A stretch of 64,000 nt of DNA. It comes from an uncultured Acidobacteriota bacterium (GTDB lineage: Bacteria; Acidobacteriota; UBA6911; RPQK01; JAPXNP01). Both the position numbers and the translations under genes were made by a program. Under the pieces are notes generated by a model, which was given only the letters and a program-made list of their open reading frames with translations, searched no databases and was not told where the DNA came from. The stretch covers positions 192,001 through 256,000 of the forward strand of contig CAVZRV010000011.1 in NCBI GenBank assembly GCA_963777605.1, read 5' to 3'. Positions 41,936-51,390 of this stretch are shown in pieces; position 1 is the first letter of the stretch; every line of letters starts with the position of its first letter.

Positions 41936-43054
41936 ATGACACGACACAACATTCCGTTGGGCAGGATTCTGGGAATTCCGATCGGCGTGGATTATTCCTG
42001 GTTCATAATCTTCCTGCTCCTGACCTGGATGCTCGCGGGCAGCTATTACCCTGCCGAATTCACGAACTGGTCCCCCCCGCTCTACTGGATCATGGGAGCG
42101 GTAACCGCGATCATGCTCTTCGTGAGCGTGCTGCTCCACGAGCTGGGACATTCTGTCCTGGCCCTGCGATACAAGATCCCGGTTCGCAGCATCACGCTTT
42201 TCCTGTTTGGAGGCGTAGCCCAGATCGGGGCGGAACCACCCAGCGCCATTGCCGAATTTCTCATCGCAATCGCAGGCCCCCTGGTCAGCCTGGGACTTGC
42301 AGTCTTCTTCTACGCGATCCAGCCAATGGTGGGCGGCATAGCGCCGCTTTTCGGCCTCGCAGAGTACCTCGCCTACATCAACCTGGCTCTGGTCGTGTTC
42401 AACCTGATTCCGGGATACCCCCTCGACGGGGGTCGTGTCTTCCGGGCGATCATGTGGCGGATTACTGGAAACATGAGGCGAGCCACGTTGATTGCCGCGA
42501 ACGTGGGCCGGTTCTTTGCGTTCGTGTTCATCTTCGCCGGCGTCTGGCAGATCTTCCAGGGCAACTTCGGGGGAGGCCTTTGGATCGCCTTCATCGGATG
42601 GTTCCTTGACAATGCCGCCTCGGCGCAGGTCCAACAATTGGCCATCCAGGGGATTCTCGCGGGTCACACTGTCGAACAGGCAATGAGCAGGAACTGTGTC
42701 TCCGTGCCCGAGAACCTGACGCTGCAACAACTGGTAGATGAGCACATCCTGGGTGGGGGTCAACGCTGTTTTCTTGTCAACGAGGGTAGCCGGACCGTCG
42801 GAATGATGACCCTTCATCGAATCCAGGAAGTACCGCGGACCGATTGGTCCACAACAAGTGCCGGCCAGGTGATGATTCCTGCCGGACAACTGAAACAGAC
42901 CTCTCCCGAGGCCGAACTCTGGTCGGCCCTCCAACAGATGGACCGTGACGGCGTCAACCAGCTGCCGGTCATTCAGGAAAGCAATTTCGTCGGAATGCTC
43001 AGTCGGGAAGATGTCATCAGTTTTCTGAGGACTCTTCGGGAACTTGGGTCATAG
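41936..43054 (+). CDS. Site-2 protease (M50) with C-terminal CBS pair
   Basis: HELGH, LFGGVA, AIAGP, FNLIPGYPLDGGR; CBS motifs at the C-terminus. Confidence 0.94.
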   Translation: MTRHNIPLGRILGIPIGVDYSWFIIFLLLTWMLAGSYYPAEFTNWSPPLYWIMGAVTAIMLFVSVLLHELGHSVLALRYKIPVRSITLFLFGGVAQIGAEPPSAIAEFLIAIAGPLVSLGLAVFFYAIQPMVGGIAPLFGLAEYLAYINLALVVFNLIPGYPLDGGRVFRAIMWRITGNMRRATLIAANVGRFFAFVFIFAGVWQIFQGNFGGGLWIAFIGWFLDNAASAQVQQLAIQGILAGHTVEQAMSRNCVSVPENLTLQQLVDEHILGGGQRCFLVNEGSRTVGMMTLHRIQEVPRTDWSTTSAGQVMIPAGQLKQTSPEAELWSALQQMDRDGVNQLPVIQESNFVGMLSREDVISFLRTLRELGS

Positions 43055-43112
43055 CAAAGTCGAACAGGCCTAACGTCGATCGATCGAAGTCAACAAACGG
43101 ACAGGCCGCAAA

Positions 43113-43751
43113 ATGGAGACTCTTGAGCAGCGCGTTCGGCGGGTAATTCAGGAGGAAGTCCGGATCGTACGTTACAATCCCGTCTGGCCGGTCTGGTTTC
43201 TCCAGGAAAAGGAGCACCTCCTGGACTGTCTCCCGGATGATCTCATCCGGCGGATCGAACACTTCGGCAGCACCGCCGTTCCGGGTATGGCTGCTAAGCC
43301 GGTCGTGGACATGCTCGTGGAGGTAACCGACCTGGCCGAAGTCAGGAAACGGGTGGTTCCCATACTCGAATCCCAGGGCTACGAGTACTTCTGGCGCCCA
43401 ACCCACGGCGACGACGGACTGCCGTTTTACGCCTGGTTCATCAAGCGGAACGCGTGGGCCGGGACTCGAACCCACCACATTCACATGGTCGAAAAAAGCT
43501 TCCGGGAACACTGGGAACGCCTCCTCTTTCGCGACTACCTCATCGAGCACCCGGAGGTCGCTCTTCAGTACGCCGAGATGAAAACTCGACTGGCGTCGGA
43601 CTTCTCCCGCGACCGAGTGGCCTATACCAGCGGCAAAGCCGATTTCATCGACAAAGTCACGAAGCTGGCCAGGGAATCTCTTCAAGTGGCCGCAGAAGGC
43701 AGGAGACCGGAGACCGGAGACAGTGTCCCACCCCTTTCGAGGAGAGATTGA
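43113..43751 (+). CDS. GrpB family protein
   Basis: Y.P.WP..F..E, IEHFGSTAVPG..AKP.VD, HHIH, FRDYL, Y...K..LA, Y...K..FI. Confidence 0.9.
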   Translation: METLEQRVRRVIQEEVRIVRYNPVWPVWFLQEKEHLLDCLPDDLIRRIEHFGSTAVPGMAAKPVVDMLVEVTDLAEVRKRVVPILESQGYEYFWRPTHGDDGLPFYAWFIKRNAWAGTRTHHIHMVEKSFREHWERLLFRDYLIEHPEVALQYAEMKTRLASDFSRDRVAYTSGKADFIDKVTKLARESLQVAAEGRRPETGDSVPPLSRRD

Positions 43752-43926
43752 AAGGGAGAAACTCCGGCGCCGAATGAAGAGTTTCTGGAAAGAACACTGG
43801 AGTGAGGCTGTTCGTCGTTCATCGATTCGGTGACGCTGATTTCTCTTGTCTGGGCCCGGTGTGCATGAGACGATCGCCGCAGGGATTGGTCCCGAGTTCG
43901 AAAATCAATTGAGCGGAGGGCGCATC

Positions 43927-44430
43927 ATGGGAAATCAGATGGACCGTCGCAGAATGCTTCGCCATTCTTTGAGCGTCTCGGCCGCAGCGGTGGTGGGTGT
44001 CGGCTACGAACACAGGGCTCTCTTTGGACAAATGGTCGATCGTTCGAAGCGCAACGAGACGAAGCCTCCCGTGACCGGCTTGCAGAGCGGGAAATTCGGC
44101 GGCAGGGAGGTTTCCCGCCTGATCATCGGTGGGAATCTGGTCAGCGGATCCGCTCACGCCGGGGACCTTCTTTATCAGTCCGAATTGATGACCCGCTACT
44201 TCACGGACGAAAAGATCCGGGAGACCTGGAGGATCGCCCAGGAGAACGGCATCAACACAACCCTGATGCGAGCCGATCCTCACATCATCGGCAACTACCG
44301 GGAGTACTGCCGGACATTCGGAGAAGGTCTGCAGTGGATCGCCCAGACGGCCCCTGAGCAGGGAGACCCGGTCGAGAACGCCCGCAAGGCAGCCGACAAC
44401 GGAGCCTTTGCCGTCTACTTCCAGTTCTGA
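43927..44430 (+). pseudogene. C-terminally truncated Tat-exported aldo/keto-reductase-like protein
   Basis: GGAGG RBS; DRRRML leader; G.FGG.EVSRLIIGGN..SG.AH, GINT, QWIAQ. Stops at about 167 aa, overlapping the end of the convergent gene. Confidence 0.65.
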
Positions 44431-46085
44431 GGGACTCTGTCGTCCTCGGTGACGTCATCCCTGGAAAGGATGCGCCCTTTTTCAACACCGAAGGAGATGT
44501 CCGACCTGGTGCCTTCGATCTTGATCGGGATGACTGCCCCGGCTCCCCTTCGCTTGAAGAGTGGATCGATCGGCTTGAGTAACAATGACTTGATCCCACC
44601 CGTCATTTGGGAGACCTTCGCCTCCGTCAGGAGCTCACCACGAAAGTTAACTGATTCATCGACAAGGCTGTAATCACCATTGAGGGCGACGGTTGCACCC
44701 GGAACCTTGAAGCGCAAGCGCCGAACCTGCATCAAGCCCTTACTGAGCAAAAATTCTCCAGAGATGTCCGAAACCACAGCTTTCGGTGCAGGGCCTTCCC
44801 GTTTTGGGCGATCCCCCCGGCCCAGTTCGCTGAGCAGATTGACCTTCTCCTGAACCGCGGGAATCGGAAACTCGGTTGATCGAATCTGGAAGTGCCCCTT
44901 GAGCTGCAGTTTTTCGAGGACGTCCACCTTTCCGGGAGGAATCAGGATCTTGGAATCGAAAGAAAGAATACCCGTCAGAAGAGGCTGGTCGGTTTTGACC
45001 GCCAGCTTCAGAAAGTCCTCGATCCGTCCATCAGTTCCATCTGCCTGGAGATCGATGGTCTTGCCCTTTTCGCCGGGCTTTCCGGCCACCGAACCGTTGG
45101 CAGTAAACTTCGAGCTTTCAATCCGCACCTTGATCGGGTCCAGAAAGGTATCCCCACTCGTACCGTCTACTACGGCCTTAAATTCAGTCTCCAGGTTGAC
45201 AGGTGTCCCGACCGGCTTCAGGTAGAAGTCCGGCGTGCGGGTAGTACCCTGGACCTCAATGTGTTCCAGGACTCCGCTGAATTCACCGTCCGAGTCGAGT
45301 GTTCCTCCGATGCCACCCAGGTCCGACAAGTCTGCCCCTTCAAAGACGTACTTCCCGCCGACCGGAGATCCCCCGGGGTCAGGGAGAGTCAGTGGTCCAA
45401 AAACTCCGGTCGTCCGGATTCGGCCCGGCGGCTTGGCATTGTCCAATTCCGCCTCGAACTTCATCGGACTCCGGGGTCCAACTGACGTCATTCTGAGTTG
45501 ATGAAGATCGAATTCGAGGGGTTCCTTCTCGGGGTTCCTGGAATGAATCAAGAGCACTGCGCCGTCGGCGATCAAACGGTCGAAGACAAACACCGGCGTC
45601 TGTCTCAAGGCAGCCGAGCCGGCGCCAGATTGGTCTCCGGTTCTCTTCCGAGGAGAAATCTGGATCTCCATCTGATTGAGGTCCAGTTTTCGAATCCGAA
45701 CGGGATCGGACCAGAGGCCTTTCAATCCGACTTCGACCTTGAACTCCTCGATCTCCAGAAACGGCGGGGCTCCCTGGCGCCCCTTGAGACTCAACCGCAG
45801 CCCCTTGCCCACGGCGCTGAAGGAAGGAAGCGGGTCGAAAGTTGGTCGAACCGCGAAATCCAGTGAGGAAAGCTGAACGTCGTCGAAACGCTGGCTCAAC
45901 AGTTCGACCGCTCTTGCCCTGGCGTTTGACCTCAGCCAGTGGGCACCCCAAATGCCAACGCCGACAAGGACGCCGAAGACCGCAAGGAAGCTTATCAGGC
46001 ACCAGATCAGCAGCGACCGGATACGGGACCGCGGCGCTGATCGTTTCCGTACTTCCCCGCTTCCCCGCTTCTCCTCCGTGGTCAC
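44415..46085 (-). CDS. AsmA-like C-terminal domain protein
   Basis: N-terminal TM, beta-rich body, G.Y.L....NF.G.L...AKVSQM..G.KSLLLKP.DPLF....G.VIPIKI.GT. Confidence 0.82.
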   Translation of the reverse strand: MTTEEKRGSGEVRKRSAPRSRIRSLLIWCLISFLAVFGVLVGVGIWGAHWLRSNARARAVELLSQRFDDVQLSSLDFAVRPTFDPLPSFSAVGKGLRLSLKGRQGAPPFLEIEEFKVEVGLKGLWSDPVRIRKLDLNQMEIQISPRKRTGDQSGAGSAALRQTPVFVFDRLIADGAVLLIHSRNPEKEPLEFDLHQLRMTSVGPRSPMKFEAELDNAKPPGRIRTTGVFGPLTLPDPGGSPVGGKYVFEGADLSDLGGIGGTLDSDGEFSGVLEHIEVQGTTRTPDFYLKPVGTPVNLETEFKAVVDGTSGDTFLDPIKVRIESSKFTANGSVAGKPGEKGKTIDLQADGTDGRIEDFLKLAVKTDQPLLTGILSFDSKILIPPGKVDVLEKLQLKGHFQIRSTEFPIPAVQEKVNLLSELGRGDRPKREGPAPKAVVSDISGEFLLSKGLMQVRRLRFKVPGATVALNGDYSLVDESVNFRGELLTEAKVSQMTGGIKSLLLKPIDPLFKRRGAGAVIPIKIEGTRSDISFGVEKGRILSRDDVTEDDRVPQNWK

Positions 46086-46434
46086 TTTGGATCCTTGCGG
46101 TCTGCCCCGGGGTCCAGAAACCGAAATCCGGGAAAGTCAGACATTCTCGAGTTGAATTCAAGCGGATTTGCCGGGTGATTGGCATCCCTGAGTGCGCTAG
46201 CGGCCGACGTCATTATCTCGATCCCTCCCTGATTGAATGCGTCCAGAAGGTTCTTATTCAGTTCTCAGTATATCTGACCAATTTAGGCCGGCGACTCGAT
46301 GAACACGTTCAGTTCATAAGGGACGGCGAAATCCCTCTCATTCTTGTATGGTTGGGCAATCAACTCTGCCCCGGGAATTGGGGCCAACATACTGGTCGCC
46401 CCCTCTTCCGTGCCGCGTATCGTCACCGGAAGGA

Positions 46435-49230: not shown

Positions 49231-49763
49231 TCAGTCCTTCTTCTCCAGGAAGCTCTCCAGGTCTTTGATAGCGTCCCTGGCAACTGACTGGCTACTTAAT
49301 GTCCGCCTCTCGTAATAGCGAATGACCTTCGGAGGCTGTGAACTGGTGAGAATCGCGAATACATGAAAGAAACGTTGGGTCGGCATGGCCGCGTCACCGC
49401 CGGCCGGGTCGTCCGGAAACATTGACGGATGGTTGCCATGGGTATAAGTCTGGTAGTCGTTAAAGACCACCACGTCCGCAGACTCCGGATCCTGCGTTTC
49501 AGTCCACCCGAACTGCTTTTCGAGCTCCATCGCCAGCTTCTTTGCCTCATCCTGGTTGGGAGCTTTCGCGAGCCAATAGGTATGCACATCACGCAGGACC
49601 TCGCGACACTTCGACGCCGGTTTTACTTTCGCCAATTGGTCCAGGCGGTAGGCGGGTTGCGTCGTCCCTGGATCAGTCTGAGGGCTGGCCAAAGTGAGCG
49701 CGGAATCTGACCAACAGAACGGCGAGGAACAAGGGATACGTCGCTAAGATGGATCCTGCTCAT
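49231..49763 (-). CDS. Hypothetical secreted protein; signal region interrupted by two apparent +1 insertions
   Basis: ORF 49231-49692 lacks a good start. From ATG 49763 (GGAG upstream), removing two bases gives MSRIILATYPLFLAVLLVSSALTLASPQ, a plausible signal peptide. Confidence 0.5.
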
Positions 49764-50275
49764 CGCATCGACTCCATTTTCACTCCCTATACTCTAGCTT
49801 GATGCGAATAACAGAGTCAAGGTTCAAACATCACCCGTCGATGGCCGGTTGCAGATCCTCACAGTTCCCTACAAAACCCATAGATCTTATGAAATTGGGC
49901 CATAACAAATATGGTCTTTGCAGGATGACTCTCCTGGCACAGGGCTCCGGGATTGCGTCTTCCGATCAATAAAAGATCAGTATATTCATAGGTTTGGCAA
50001 TCTCCCGTCCTGATCACCCGGAGTCTGGAACGTTTCTTGCTTCAGCTACTTCGAAATCAAATTCCATCCGCCAGGGCCGGGGGCGGCCCGTCACGCTTCA
50101 ACATGGAATGGTATGCAGCCTGCGGAGTCGCGACTGGCCAGGATCCGGTCTGGGGATGGAGAGTCCTTGGAATTCACGTTTCTCAAGTGAGGATGCTCTC
50201 TCAGCGTCGGTCGAGTAAGGCTTTTGCGAAGACTGACTTGATGCATCCGCGACAGACCAAAGGAGGGTGGTCAAA

Positions 50276-51390
50276 ATGCGAGTATCTACATCAATCCTGG
50301 GAGCAGGGGTTGCCGGTTTGGTAATGATGGTGGGTGGCGTCCAGACTGCGTACGGCCAGGGGTGAGTGGTCGCCCGTCAGGGTGCGCCCGTGATTGGCGC
50401 AATTACGCAGACAAGTCGGGCATTCGGTGAGGGCGGAGAGGCAGGGACCGGCACCAGGCCGAGATCGCCTGCAGACAAGTGGCTGATCGCTGTTGGATAC
50501 CGATGGCAAGATTCGTTCCGCCATTTTCGCGGACCCAACGAGGAAGCGAATCGGATTGCCGACGGCACTCAGGTCGAAAACAGACTGCACCTGTTTGACG
50601 TCGCGGTCAGCTACCAGGCGTCTCCACGATGGAGCGTCAATGCAAGTGCTCCCTTCATGACTGTGGACCGCATCTCTCACGGTCCCGGAACCGTGACTGG
50701 GAGTGCCGGAATCGGTGACATGTCGGTTGGGGCGAAGGTTTGGCTCTTTAAACCTCCTACCGAGTCCGGGCCAGAACATCCAGGTCGGATTCTCTCTGAA
50801 ATTACCCACAGGGGATTCCAACGTCACAGACCAGGTCGGAGACAGCACCGTGGTCGTGGACCAATCGATTCAGTTGGGAGATTCGGGAACCGGGTTTTCA
50901 GTCGATTACACGGCCTTCAAGACGATCAACCGATTCACTTTGTTCTCCTCGGGGGTCTACCTCTTCAACCCGAAAAACTCTTATACTCCAAAGGGATGGA
51001 ACGAATCTTATCGACCTCCCGGCTACCCGGGCTACTCCAGGCCGGGAACGGTCTATTCCGTTCCTGACGCGTATCTCGTCCAGGCTGGGATTCGGATACG
51101 CCCCACCAAAGCCGTTTTACGGTTTAGCGCTTACGGCCACAGGTCGGATTGAGGGGATTCCGGCATTCGACGTCATCGGTGGAGAGGACGGTTTCCGTCG
51201 TCCCGGGTATGCAGTGTCGGTGGGTCCGGGCTTGATGTTTACCAAGAACAGCGACACATTTTCATTCAGCGTCCCAATTGCTGTCTATCGCAACCGGACC
51301 AGAAGCGCTTCCGACATTGAGAGCGGGAGGCATGGAGATGCGGCTTTTGCCGATTACCTGATACTGCTCGCGTATTCCCGTACCTTTTAA
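50276..51390 (+). CDS. Outer-membrane beta-barrel protein, candidate selenoprotein (in-frame TGA at codon 30); two +1 frameshifts near 50770 and 51088
   Basis: AGGAGG at 50261, ATG 50276; MRVSTSILGAGVAGLVMMVGGVQTAYG-QG-[TGA 50363-65]-VVARQG. Then SFRHFRG, GIGDM, LKLPTG, DQSIQLGD.GTG, YLFNP, SVPD.Y, GFRRPGY, RHGDAAFADY and C-terminal AYSRTF beta-signal. About 370 aa once repaired. Confidence 0.8.
50366..50412 (+). promoter_or_regulatory. Candidate bacterial SECIS element
   Basis: Stem TGCGCC(50383-88)/GGCGCA(50396-401), loop CGTGATT with GU at positions 2-3, loop starting 24 nt after the UGA; lower pairings CGT/ACG and GTC/GAC. Confidence 0.6.

What the first reader, a model, noticed from the sequence alone, without database searches (positions are those of the whole stretch)
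50276..51390. Candidate selenoprotein: outer-membrane beta-barrel with UGA at the mature N-terminus
Seen: a strong RBS, ATG and a 27-aa signal peptide run in frame into QG-TGA-VVARQG, and the frame continues into a barrel ending in Phe. The ORF caller started only after the TGA, which yields a barrel with no signal peptide. From memory, proteins with the SFRHF / DQSIQLGDGG / GFRRPGY / HGDAAFADY motifs begin QGCVA, so the TGA would sit on a conserved Cys. Inference: Sec is residue 3 of the mature chain, on an N-terminal segment that could plug the barrel and act in redox gating or in metal, selenium or sulfur uptake. Selenocysteine in outer-membrane channels is rarely described, and I cannot place this family among known selenoproteins.
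Basis: partly seen in the sequence, partly recalled or inferred. Interest (0 to 1): 0.9.

Follow-up and report, generated by a model that had tools for sequence, protein, structure and literature searches.

The report
Selenocysteine outer-membrane barrel, this copy frameshifted
The stop-like TGA just after the signal peptide marks a conserved selenocysteine in a large, apparently uncatalogued family of outer-membrane barrel proteins of soil bacteria, but the copy in this window also carries two single-base insertions that break its reading frame.

Summary
The frame does not run on to the C-terminal Phe.

At family level the selenocysteine reading holds:
- All 12 homologues in 11 related genomes have TGA at this column.
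- Across 93 loci the column is TGA 44, TGC 27, TGT 21, with one unreadable and no other residue.
- A 6-bp hairpin 17 nt after the TGA meets the published bacterial SECIS criteria. It covaries in TGA forms and is absent from Cys forms.
- The genome has tRNA-Sec, selA, selB and selD, and uses TGA as its main stop codon.

The protein models as a 12-stranded FapF/COG4313-like barrel with an invariant mature N-terminus, Gln-Gly-Sec/Cys. A TlpA/ResA-like periplasmic thiol-disulfide oxidoreductase gene lies next to it in 25 of 92 loci, which suggests a redox-active or ligand-binding N-terminal residue.

I found the family in neither the 2026 catalogue of 119 prokaryotic selenoprotein families nor NCBIfam. 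Database entries mostly start after the TGA.

The parts
50262..50266 (+). Shine-Dalgarno-like GGAGG, 9 nt before the ATG
   Evidence: Read from the sequence.
50276..50356 (+). Start codon and 27-residue signal peptide (MRVSTSILGAGVAGLVMMVGGVQTAYG). The cleavage site after AYG is inferred.
   Evidence: Equivalent in-frame signal peptides lie upstream of the TGA in 12 of 12 relatives. The small-x-small motif before QG recurs across the family.
50357..50362 (+). Gln-Gly, the inferred first two residues of the mature protein
   Evidence: Q1 and G2 are invariant in 90 of 90 aligned homologues and in 43 of 43 Sec forms and 48 of 48 Cys forms.
50363..50365 (+). In-frame TGA, read as selenocysteine (mature residue 3)
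   Evidence: Column census: TGA 44, TGC 27, TGT 21, undetermined 1, of 93 loci. 36 of 36 metagenome loci have TGA. TGA is otherwise the main stop codon in the window.
50383..50401 (+). SECIS-type hairpin: stem 50383-50388 with 50396-50401, loop 50389-50395 (CGUGAUU)
   Evidence: The hairpin alone folds at -9.7 kcal/mol. Across 44 TGA loci 89.6% of cells pair, against 19-54% when the partner is slid. 24 cells changed on both sides against 7.3 +/- 2.1 in shuffles, with 0 of 500 shuffles as high. RNAalifold predicts the same six pairs. The hairpin is absent from Cys forms.
50366..50767 (+). Frame-0 part of the barrel gene: N-terminal segment and first strands, including SFRHF
   Evidence: 79% identical to the G010 orthologue.
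50768..50768 (+). First single-base insertion (a G in TCC-GGG-CC). The exact base within 50766-50772 is ambiguous. It shifts the frame to +1.
   Evidence: Alignments.
50769..51085 (+). Frame +1 part (QNIQVGFSLKLPTG ... VDQSIQLGDSG ... YLVQAG)
   Evidence: Self-match with no paralogue in the genome.
51086..51086 (+). Second single-base insertion (a T in GGC-T-GGG). The exact base within 51086-51094 is ambiguous. It shifts the frame to +2.
   Evidence: Alignments.
51087..51390 (+). Frame +2 part (GLALTATGRIEG ... GFRRPGY ... HGDAAFADY ... YSRTF) and the TAA stop at 51388-51390

Best explanation
This is a gene of a large, uncharacterised family of 12-stranded outer-membrane beta-barrels, distant relatives of FapF and of the COG4313/PF13557 channels.

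After signal-peptide removal, the mature chain begins with an invariant Gln-Gly-Cys. In many Acidobacteriota, and in some Planctomycetota and others, the Cys codon is replaced by UGA. That UGA is decoded as selenocysteine by SelB and tRNA-Sec with the help of a 6-bp hairpin that starts 17 nt downstream. The window's gene is a member of an all-Sec clade.

Shown:
- the conserved UGA/Cys column;
- the hairpin and its covariation;
- the Sec machinery in the genome;
- the barrel fold of an orthologue.

Inferred:
- signal peptidase I cuts before Gln-Gly, so Sec is mature residue 3;
- the roughly 40-residue N-terminal segment lies under or inside the barrel, as in Pput2725;
- the Sec/Cys is a redox-active or ligand-binding residue that faces the periplasm. 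It would be kept reduced by a TlpA/ResA-like thiol-disulfide oxidoreductase, which is encoded next to the barrel gene in about a quarter of loci. It would pair with a second Cys 8-14 residues further on where that Cys exists.

The window's own copy has two single-base insertions. It is either a very recent pseudogene or mis-assembled, and I put these at about even odds.
For: Conserved TGA or Cys at one column
- 12 of 12 homologues in 11 of 60 relatives have TGA at the column, each with an in-frame signal peptide upstream and an open frame of 327-340 residues downstream.
- Of 93 loci: TGA 44, TGC 27, TGT 21, one unreadable.
- 91 of 91 other readable loci are intact.
- Full-length Cys forms exist in the protein database.

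The TGA is not an ordinary stop or a restart point
- The codon after the TGA is often not a start codon (GTC, ATC, ATT or GTA in several loci).
- TGA ends the same gene in L003 and L004.
- TGA ends 16 of 25 long frames in the window.

Hairpin
- It meets the four published bSECIS criteria quoted: loop 7 nt, stem 6-7 bp, G at loop position 2 invariant, 23 nt between UGA and loop, and -9.7 kcal/mol.
- Synonymous third-position changes (Ala GCG to GCA with Gly GGC to GGT) keep pair 24-36 in 7 sequences.
- TGA forms average 5.77 of 6 pairs, and 34 of 44 have all six. Cys forms average 1.98, and 0 of 48 have all six.

Sec machinery
- tRNA-Sec at 70.5 bits with anticodon tca, selA at 528 bits, selB at 354 bits, and selD at 363 bits with its own TGA.
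- selA is present in 10 of the 11 relatives that carry the gene.
- selA is present in 5 of 5 distant TGA-form genomes against 2 of 5 Cys-form genomes.

Fold
- AlphaFold2 model of the G010 orthologue: pLDDT 87.2, pTM 0.86, 12 strands.
- Best Foldseek matches: FapF (E 2.6e-13) and the COG4313 channel 4RL8 (E 4.1e-10).
- Profile against PDB sequences: FapF, E 4.3e-12.

Neighbour
- A TlpA/ResA-like gene lies beside the barrel gene in 25 of 92 loci, in several arrangements and clades.
- A comparable genome holds only 11 such genes.
Against: - No direct evidence of selenium in the protein, and none of expression.
- The window's copy is frameshifted twice and has Ala where 89 of 90 homologues have Gln in the SVxDQY motif. 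In this organism the protein may not be made.
- On its own, the window hairpin does not fold better than shuffled sequence: z = -1.4, and 18 of 200 shuffles fold as well.
- Part of the hairpin's conservation overlaps conserved codons (APVIGA).
- The position of the N-terminal segment is not resolved: pLDDT is 40-63 for residues 1-40.
- No TlpA-like gene lies next to the window's gene or next to those of its 12 nearest relatives. The loci held for those relatives have only about 1.5 kb of flank.
- 29 of 91 proteins have no second Cys, so an intramolecular redox pair cannot be general.
- Two Cys-form genomes do have selA, so the machinery does not dictate the form.
Confidence: 0.85

Rival explanations
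1. The window's copy is a true pseudogene. The organism inherited the selenoprotein gene but has recently lost it through two real single-base insertions, so no Sec-containing barrel is made here. This concerns the status of this one copy and is compatible with the family-level reading.
For: - Two +1 insertions lie within 320 bp. They are found in none of 91 other genome loci and none of the 28 complete metagenome loci.
- Neither insertion lengthens a long homopolymer.
- Other genes in the window look intact: AcrB matches its profile over 2-1020 of 1021 positions, Na_sulph_symp over 3-472 of 472, and Iso_dh over 2-348 of 348. There are also open frames of 1565, 1060, 1037 and 942 codons.
- One substitution falls at a site conserved in 89 of 90 homologues.
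- There is no second copy in the genome.
Against: - Apart from the two insertions the gene is fully collinear with its closest relative. It keeps 58 of 60 strongly conserved residues, and one of the two misses is an alignment gap at the frameshift. The TGA and the hairpin are also intact.
- The one stretch of this assembly that is present twice (C4 against C11:272853-286664, 98.1% identical) shows 16 single-base indels in 13.8 kb. These break long frames in one copy or the other, several of them next to G runs, as here.
- The assembly has N50 528 kb and no N. That fits a long-read assembly, which is my inference.
Confidence: 0.45
2. The TGA is an ordinary stop. A short upstream ORF ends there, and the barrel is translated separately from the GTG that follows.
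For: GTG follows the TGA in the window. Gene callers annotate homologues this way.
Against: - In several TGA loci the next codon is GTC, ATC, ATT or GTA.
- Cys homologues are continuous through this point.
- A barrel starting at Val would have no signal peptide. The upstream 26-30 codons always have signal-peptide character and are always in frame.
- The hairpin covaries only in TGA forms.
Confidence: 0.02
3. The UGA is recoded, but not as selenocysteine. It would be read through as Cys, Trp or Gly by a near-cognate or suppressor tRNA.
For: No selenium measurement exists. The Cys forms show that the position tolerates Cys.
Against: - A complete Sec system is present.
- The hairpin matches the bSECIS model.
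- TGA forms were found only in genomes where selA was found, with one exception, a 92%-complete MAG.
- TGA is the commonest stop codon.
Confidence: 0.05
4. The Cys/Sec is the +1 residue of a lipoprotein. Signal peptidase II would cut directly before it and it would be lipidated, giving a lipid-anchored barrel.
For: An invariant Cys close to the end of a signal peptide, with Gly at -1.
Against: - The residues before QG fit the signal peptidase I -3/-1 rule (AWA, AYG, AFS, TNA, and so on).
- Arg, His or Pro are common within six residues of the Cys (PRHAWAQG, DWLRGQG), and an invariant Gln sits at -2. These are unlike the lipobox consensus as I recall it.
- No predictor was run.
Confidence: 0.04

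Closest known systems
FapF, the functional-amyloid secretion channel of Pseudomonas (PDB 5O65, 5O67, 5O68; NCBIfam NF058560)
   Same: Best match by structure (Foldseek E 2.6e-13, TM 0.60/0.72) and by sequence profile (E 4.3e-12). 33 of 90 family members touch NF058560 at E <= 0.01. Both are 12-stranded barrels with a segment before strand 1.
   Different: About 14% identity. The window family shows no fap operon context in the loci examined. FapF has no N-terminal Gln-Gly-Cys/Sec motif that I know of (recalled, not tested). That FapF has a periplasmic coiled coil and a plug helix is also recalled, not read here.
COG4313 / Pfam PF13557 (Phenol_MetA_deg) channels, for example Pput2725 (PDB 4RL8)
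   Same: Both are 12-stranded barrels (Foldseek E 4.1e-10, TM 0.59/0.74). In Pput2725 the N-terminal ~14 residues fold into the lumen from the periplasmic side (PMC4493636, passages read). That is the model for the inferred plug here. 35 of 90 family members match PF13557 at E <= 0.01.
   Different: The window fragment scores 14.8 bits against a cut-off of 22, and the G010 orthologue gets no hit. The N-terminal segment here is about 40 residues and carries the invariant QG[C/U]. 'Cysteine' occurs 0 times in the main text of the Pput2725 paper.
GSU2204 family CXXCH (seleno)protein, listed as an MtrB/PioB-family outer-membrane barrel (NF041027)
   Same: An outer-membrane beta-barrel listed as a selenoprotein family in the 2026 review, Table 1.
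   Different: A different family. The window fragment scores E 0.25 and 10.1 bits against a cut-off of 350. Only 1 of 90 members touches the model, at E 0.0011.
[quoted passage not shown]
   Same: The other outer-membrane selenoprotein in the 2026 catalogue, found with deep-Sep (PMC12013277, passages read).
   Different: [quoted passage not shown] No member of the window family matches its NCBIfam model.
Substrates of periplasmic TlpA/ResA/DsbE-type reductases
   Same: The neighbouring gene in 25 of 92 loci carries a signal peptide and a WCxPC motif. Five of the 25 neighbours were scanned against NCBIfam, and all five match ResA, TlpA and DsbE models. This points to a periplasm-facing Cys/Sec that has to be kept reduced.
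   Different: All five scores are below the family cut-offs (70-117 bits against 170 for ResA). No interaction was tested. The known TlpA and ResA clients (ScoI, CoxB, apocytochrome c) are recalled, not read here, and are not barrels.

Membership tests
Bacterial selenoprotein (UGA decoded by SelB with a bSECIS element) | In-frame UGA conserved among orthologues | tested here: met
   TGA in 44 of 92 readable loci from genomes, including 12 of 12 homologues in the nearest relatives. 36 of 36 metagenome loci, a set biased by the query.
Bacterial selenoprotein (UGA decoded by SelB with a bSECIS element) | Cys at the aligned position in homologues (Sec/Cys pair) | tested here: met
   TGC 27 and TGT 21 of 92, and no other residue. 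Full-length Cys forms exist in the protein database.
Bacterial selenoprotein (UGA decoded by SelB with a bSECIS element) | bSECIS stem-loop: apical loop 3-9 nt, stem 4-16 bp, G in the first two loop positions, 16-37 nt from the UGA, MFE <= -7.5 kcal/mol (criteria as quoted in PMC13188914) | tested here: met
   Loop 7 nt, stem 6-7 bp, G28 invariant, spacing 23 nt, -9.7 kcal/mol. Covariation is above both controls. The hairpin is absent from Cys forms. bSECISearch itself was not run.
Bacterial selenoprotein (UGA decoded by SelB with a bSECIS element) | selA, selB, selC and selD in the genome | tested here: met
   All are over the curated cut-offs, and ARAGORN calls tRNA-SeC with anticodon tca.
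Bacterial selenoprotein (UGA decoded by SelB with a bSECIS element) | Selenium shown in the protein (75Se labelling or MS) | not testable with these tools
   No experiment was possible.
PF13557 / COG4313 / FapF-type 12-stranded outer-membrane barrel | Score over the Pfam gathering cut-off for PF13557 | tested here: not met
   The window fragment scores 14.8 bits against 22. The orthologue P0002 gets no hit. 35 of 90 family members match at E <= 0.01. Precomputed PF13557 labels sit on part of the database hits.
PF13557 / COG4313 / FapF-type 12-stranded outer-membrane barrel | 12-stranded barrel fold | tested here: met
   The model of the G010 orthologue has 12 long strands and pTM 0.86. The top structural matches are FapF and 4RL8. 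The window's own broken copy was not modelled.
PF13557 / COG4313 / FapF-type 12-stranded outer-membrane barrel | N-terminal segment occupying the barrel lumen | tested here: inconclusive
   pLDDT is 56, 63, 40 and 52 for the first four blocks of ten residues. The model's coordinates could not be inspected.
Bacterial lipoprotein (lipobox with Cys at +1) | Lipobox directly after a short uncharged h-region | tested here: not met
   Sequences have charged or Pro residues and an invariant Gln between the h-region and the Cys/Sec. The lipobox consensus is recalled, and no predictor was run.
Catalogued outer-membrane selenoproteins (NF041027 GSU2204; NF049945 TonB-dependent receptor, FCYXU type) | Match to the NCBIfam model | tested here: not met
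   The best match is E 0.0011 in 1 of 90 members for NF041027, and there is none for NF049945.

The most novel reading that the evidence does not exclude
The mature N-terminus NH2-Gln-Gly-Sec would act as an amino-terminal chelating hook. The free amine, two backbone amides and the selenolate would form an N3Se site, in the manner of the ATCUN motif (X-X-His) or the Ni-hook of Ni-SOD (both recalled). The hook would sit on the plug of an outer-membrane channel. It would capture a soft metal or another thiophilic substrate at the periplasmic mouth and gate its passage, and a dedicated TlpA-like reductase would reset it.

This would explain three things:
- the spacing from the cleavage site to the Cys/Sec is invariant;
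- Gly2 is invariant;
- many members need no second Cys.
Probability: 0.1. Interest if true: 0.85.

Novelty: new member of a known kind. Interest (0 to 1): 0.66.

Why it matters
**Annotation.** The protein search returned at least 3,675 relatives. Most of the best 120 start right after the TGA, lack a signal peptide and are called 'hypothetical protein'. In a major soil phylum they are therefore truncated and would be mislocalised by any predictor.

**Selenium biology.** Sec would sit in the outer membrane, three residues from a protein N-terminus and outside the cytoplasmic reducing systems. The 2026 catalogue lists only two outer-membrane selenoproteins, both of other families.

**Function of the family.**
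- The Sec/Cys pair marks the N-terminal residue as the functional centre of an otherwise unstudied barrel family.
- The recurring TlpA-like neighbour gives a concrete, testable partner.
- At least four Sec/Cys switches on the tree offer natural controls.

**For this window.** The example shows that an in-frame TGA can be genuine while the same gene is broken elsewhere, or mis-assembled.

Tried and rejected
- **Same-species contigs.** A metagenome scan for a near-identical copy found nothing closer than 81% amino-acid identity (L116). The frameshifts could not be cross-checked that way.
- **Paralogue.** There is no second copy in the genome.
- **Other genetic code.** Rejected. TGA ends 16 of 25 long frames in the window and ends the orthologous gene in L003 and L004.
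- **Programmed frameshifting at 50768 and 51086.** Rejected. The insertions are absent from all other loci.
- **General frameshift noise in the window.**
  - Three suspicious runs of abutting same-strand frames were scanned. Two are separate genes of RND efflux operons. The third (43020-46136) has no Pfam hit and is unresolved.
  - The duplicated stretch C4/C11 nevertheless shows that the assembly contains single-base indel errors.
- **Rfam.** The region has no meaningful match. The one hit is 16.9 bits against a gathering score of 45.
- **Single-sequence folding.** The SECIS region does not fold better than shuffled sequence. The case rests on comparison across loci.
- **Gene neighbourhood.** Apart from the TlpA-like gene, no gene cluster recurred in more than 18 loci. 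Those seen were:
  - a ~180-residue membrane protein upstream in 18 Bacteroidota loci;
  - PAP2 in 8 loci;
  - FG-GAP/ASPIC in 7 loci;
  - DUF3179 in 6 loci;
  - a propeller histidine kinase in 6 loci.
  - None names a substrate.
- **ESM Atlas.** It gave only 'porin' and 'transporter' cluster names.
- **Complex prediction.** Not used. An enzyme with its substrate is a poor case for that test.
- **Literature.**
  - Searches found no paper that joins selenocysteine with COG4313, PF13557, FapF or Solibacter in a relevant way.
  - I read Table 1 of PMC13188914 in full.
  - I read only passages of PMC9312934, bioRxiv 10.1101/2022.07.06.499078 and PMC12013277.
  - PMC12013261 (Haft and Tolstoy 2025) is not held.
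The supplements of deep-Sep, Peng et al. 2016 and Deng et al. 2026, none of which I saw, could list this family.
Full report
**What is in the window**

On the + strand a GGAGG (50262-50266) precedes ATG 50276. The frame reads MRVSTSILGAGVAGLVMMVGGVQTAYG-QG, then TGA at 50363-50365, then VVARQGAPVIGA....

The rest is not as described. The gene does not stay in one frame.
- SFRHF lies in frame 0.
- VDQSIQLGDSG lies in frame +1.
- GFRRPGY and HGDAAFADY...YSRTF-TAA lie in frame +2.

Alignment with orthologues and with the closest relative I could find (metagenome contig L116, 75.6% nucleotide identity over 1180 aligned bases) shows exactly two single-base insertions in the window. They are at about 50768 (a G in TCC-GGG-CC) and about 51086 (a T in GGC-T-GGG). 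Otherwise the gene is collinear.

**The TGA is conserved**

The genome (6.73 Mb, 53 contigs, 96.7% complete, 5.7% contamination) has no paralogue.

Among 60 relatives, 11 genomes hold 12 homologues with 28-79% identity. All 12 have TGA at the same column. Each is preceded in frame by 26-30 codons with signal-peptide character and ...QG, and followed by an uninterrupted frame of 327-340 codons. One of these 12 (L010) comes from the unpublished genome G018.

A scan of one genome per species used patterns from the C-terminal half, so it is blind to the N-terminus. It confirmed 522 relatives and kept the best 80.

Over all 93 loci (the window, the 12 and the 80) the column reads:

| Codon | Loci |
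|---|---|
| TGA | 44 |
| TGC | 27 |
| TGT | 21 |
| unreadable (L044, itself frameshifted) | 1 |

No other residue occurs. All 91 other readable loci run open from QG[C/U] to a stop after 300-400 codons.

A metagenome scan added 36 loci, all with TGA. Of these, 28 are complete and 8 run off their contigs. This set is biased, because its search patterns came from the window's Sec-type sequence.

The protein database holds at least 3,675 relatives. Most of the best 120 begin right after the TGA, and a few are full-length Cys forms (...AYGQG-C-VAARQG...).

**The TGA is recoded, not a stop**
- TGA is the commonest stop codon in the window: 16 of 25 frames of 400 codons or more end in it.
- TGA ends the orthologous gene itself in L003 and L004.
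- The codon after the in-frame TGA is often GTC, ATC, ATT or GTA, so restarting there is not a general option.
- A barrel without a signal peptide could not reach the outer membrane.

**A SECIS-type hairpin**

In the 44 TGA loci, columns 21-26 pair with columns 34-39, counted from the T of TGA. They enclose a 7-nt loop, CGUGNUU.
- 89.6% of cells form standard pairs, against 19-54% when the 3' partner is slid by 1-3 columns.
- 24 cells keep the pair through changes on both sides, against 7.3 +/- 2.1 in shuffles. None of 500 shuffles reaches the observed value.
- Pair 24-36 switches G-C to A-U in 7 sequences through synonymous third-position changes (Ala GCG to GCA with Gly GGC to GGT). Pair 22-38 runs through G-C, G-U and A-U.

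The hairpin satisfies the published bSECIS model as quoted in the 2026 review:

| Criterion | Model | Here |
|---|---|---|
| Apical loop | 3-9 nt | 7 nt |
| Stem | 4-16 bp | 6-7 bp |
| G in the first two loop positions | required | G28, invariant |
| Distance from UGA to loop | 16-37 nt | 23 nt |
| Free energy | <= -7.5 kcal/mol | -9.7 kcal/mol (window hairpin 50383-50401) |

As a control I scored the same register in the Cys forms.

| Measure | TGA forms (44) | Cys forms (48) |
|---|---|---|
| Mean pairs of 6 | 5.77 | 1.98 |
| Loci with all six pairs | 34 | 0 |
| Mean folding energy, nt 18-42 | -11.2 kcal/mol | -4.4 kcal/mol |

One Cys row (L098) was out of register.

Caveats:
- Single-sequence folding is not better than shuffles.
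- The stem overlaps the conserved codons for APVIGA. I read that conservation as partly a consequence of the RNA constraint, since Cys forms do not keep that peptide.

**Sec machinery**

The genome has:
- tRNA-Sec, 70.5 bits, with anticodon tca by ARAGORN;
- selA, 528 bits;
- selB, 354 bits;
- selD, 363 bits, itself with one TGA.

selA was found in 55 of 61 genomes of the order sample, including G000. It was found in 10 of the 11 relatives that carry the gene. The exception is G045, a 92%-complete MAG.

In five distant TGA-form genomes selA was found in 5 of 5. In five Cys-form genomes it was found in 2 of 5.

**The protein**

An AlphaFold2 model of the mature G010 orthologue was built with a 90-row alignment, leaving L010 out. 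It has mean pLDDT 87.2, pTM 0.86 and twelve long strands. The first 40 residues are poorly defined, with pLDDT 56, 63, 40 and 52 per block of ten.

The best matches are:
- by Foldseek, FapF (E 2.6e-13) and the COG4313 channel Pput2725, PDB 4RL8 (E 4.1e-10);
- by sequence profile against PDB chains, FapF (E 4.3e-12).

Membership of PF13557 is marginal. The window fragment scores 14.8 bits against a cut-off of 22, and the orthologue gets no hit. 35 of 90 members match at E <= 0.01. No NCBIfam model covers the family.

In Pput2725 the N-terminal ~14 residues fold into the lumen from the periplasmic side (PMC4493636, passages). By analogy the 40-residue segment here may do the same, but this is inference.

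**The N-terminal motif**
- Q1, G2 and C/U3 are invariant in 91 of 91 proteins.
- R7 is present in 43 of 43 Sec forms and 40 of 48 Cys forms.
- The residues before QG follow the small-x-small pattern of signal peptidase I sites (AWA, AYG, AFS, TNA and so on). Arg, His or Pro are often nearby, which speaks against a lipobox (the rules are recalled and no predictor was run).
- A second Cys lies within the first 30 residues in 26 of 43 Sec forms (mostly position 17) and in 31 of 48 Cys forms (mostly positions 11-12). 29 of 91 proteins have no other Cys at all, and the window's copy has none nearby.

**Neighbours**

In 25 of 92 loci (10 TGA-form, 15 Cys-form) a gene for a secreted thioredoxin-fold protein with a WCxPC motif lies beside the barrel gene.
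- Same strand, 1-23 nt downstream: 8 loci.
- Same strand, 115 nt downstream: 1 locus (L083).
- Downstream on the opposite strand: 2 loci.
- Upstream: 13 loci.
- Overlapping: 1 locus.

The neighbour matches AhpC-TSA/Redoxin in Pfam. Five of the 25 neighbours were also scanned against NCBIfam, and all five match the ResA, TlpA and DsbE models below their cut-offs.

The window's genome has 11 such genes in all, and none is near this gene. Chance adjacency should therefore be well under 1% per locus; that figure is my estimate. The association recurs in several clades and arrangements.

In the window itself the gene stands alone. A small ORF without a Pfam hit (49231-49692) lies upstream on the - strand, with an Iso_dh gene and a Na_sulph_symp gene beyond it. 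A rhamnosidase-like gene lies downstream on the - strand.

**Evolution**

A FastTree of 90 proteins was built with the first 16 residues removed and L010 left out. It needs at least four Sec/Cys switches, against a shuffled mean of 30.1, and none of 500 shuffles is as low.
- The window's clade is all-Sec (10 rows).
- Cys clades (Acidobacteriaceae, some Bryobacterales) nest among Sec forms.
- A large Bacteroidota clade is all-Cys.

The tree is unrooted, so no direction of change is claimed.

**Status of the window's copy**

For a real pseudogene:
- Two insertions lie 320 bp apart, and no other locus has them.
- Neighbouring genes match their profiles end to end.
- One substitution falls at a site conserved in 89 of 90 homologues.

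For assembly error:
- Everything else in the gene is intact, including the TGA, the hairpin and 58 of 60 strongly conserved residues.
- The only part of the assembly that is present twice (C4 against C11:272853-286664, 98.1% identical) differs by 21 indels, 16 of them single bases. They break long frames in one copy or the other, and several lie next to G runs, as here.

I leave this at about even odds.

**Is it known?**

Table 1 of the 2026 review lists 119 prokaryotic selenoprotein families (read in full). Two are outer-membrane proteins: the GSU2204/MtrB-PioB type and a TonB-dependent receptor with an FCYXU motif. Neither matches this family. Nothing in the table carries a PF13557, COG4313 or FapF label.

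Searches that join selenocysteine with COG4313, PF13557, FapF or Solibacter found nothing relevant. Passages of three further papers gave no hint.

I therefore call it apparently unreported, not certainly so.

**Verdict**

This is a genuine Sec/Cys family, with confidence about 0.85 that UGA encodes Sec in its intact members. It adds a new protein family to a known kind of recoding, in an unusual cellular place and position. The functional model is supported only by the neighbour gene and by structural analogy. That model is a periplasm-facing redox or ligand-binding N-terminal residue on a possible plug. The window's own copy is broken as assembled.

Noticed in passing
G000:C7:931111-932034 (outside the window): selD of this genome carries one in-frame TGA, as in Sec-containing SelD proteins.
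   Followed up: no
G000:C7:756414-756806, C35:154745-155083, C30:49596-49943, C13:189542-189916 (outside the window): Four of the 11 TlpA/ResA-like matches in the genome contain one in-frame TGA. They may be thioredoxin-fold selenoproteins, which would make this a Sec-rich genome.
   Followed up: no
G000:C4 (whole contig, 13.8 kb) against C11:272853-286664 (outside the window): The two stretches are 98.1% identical and differ by 21 indels, 16 of them single bases. The indels break long frames in one copy or the other. This points to a strain-variant contig, explains part of the 5.7% contamination, and shows single-base indel noise in the assembly.
   Followed up: partly
Loci L036, L037, L039, L042, L043, L046, L049, L061, L062, L065-L067, L072, L074, L076, L080, L083, L087, L091, L093-L095, L098-L100: A secreted TlpA/ResA-like thioredoxin-fold gene with a WCxPC motif lies directly beside the barrel gene in 25 of 92 loci.
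   Followed up: partly
18 Bacteroidota loci (for example L109:4302-4904, L077, L079, L097): A ~180-residue protein with an N-terminal hydrophobic helix and no Pfam hit sits on the same strand upstream of the Cys-form barrel gene, 131-563 nt away in 16 loci and about 2.8 kb away in 2 (L096, L104). DUF3179, a family with known selenoprotein members according to the 2026 review, lies downstream in 6 loci.
   Followed up: no
L044 (genome contigs locus): This MAG's copy of the gene is also frameshifted, and its N-terminal column could not be read.
   Followed up: no
L038 (record labelled Heliomicrobium, Bacillota): A TGA-form outer-membrane barrel sits on a contig assigned to a Bacillota MAG, and it groups with Pyrinomonadaceae sequences in the tree. 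The contig is probably mis-binned.
   Followed up: no
G014 (loci L009 and L014): One relative carries two diverged paralogues (43% identity to the query for the second). Both have the TGA and the hairpin.
   Followed up: no
window 43020-46136 (- strand): Three abutting, slightly overlapping open frames on one strand (295, 211 and 573 codons) have no Pfam hit. They may be three genes or one frameshifted gene.
   Followed up: partly
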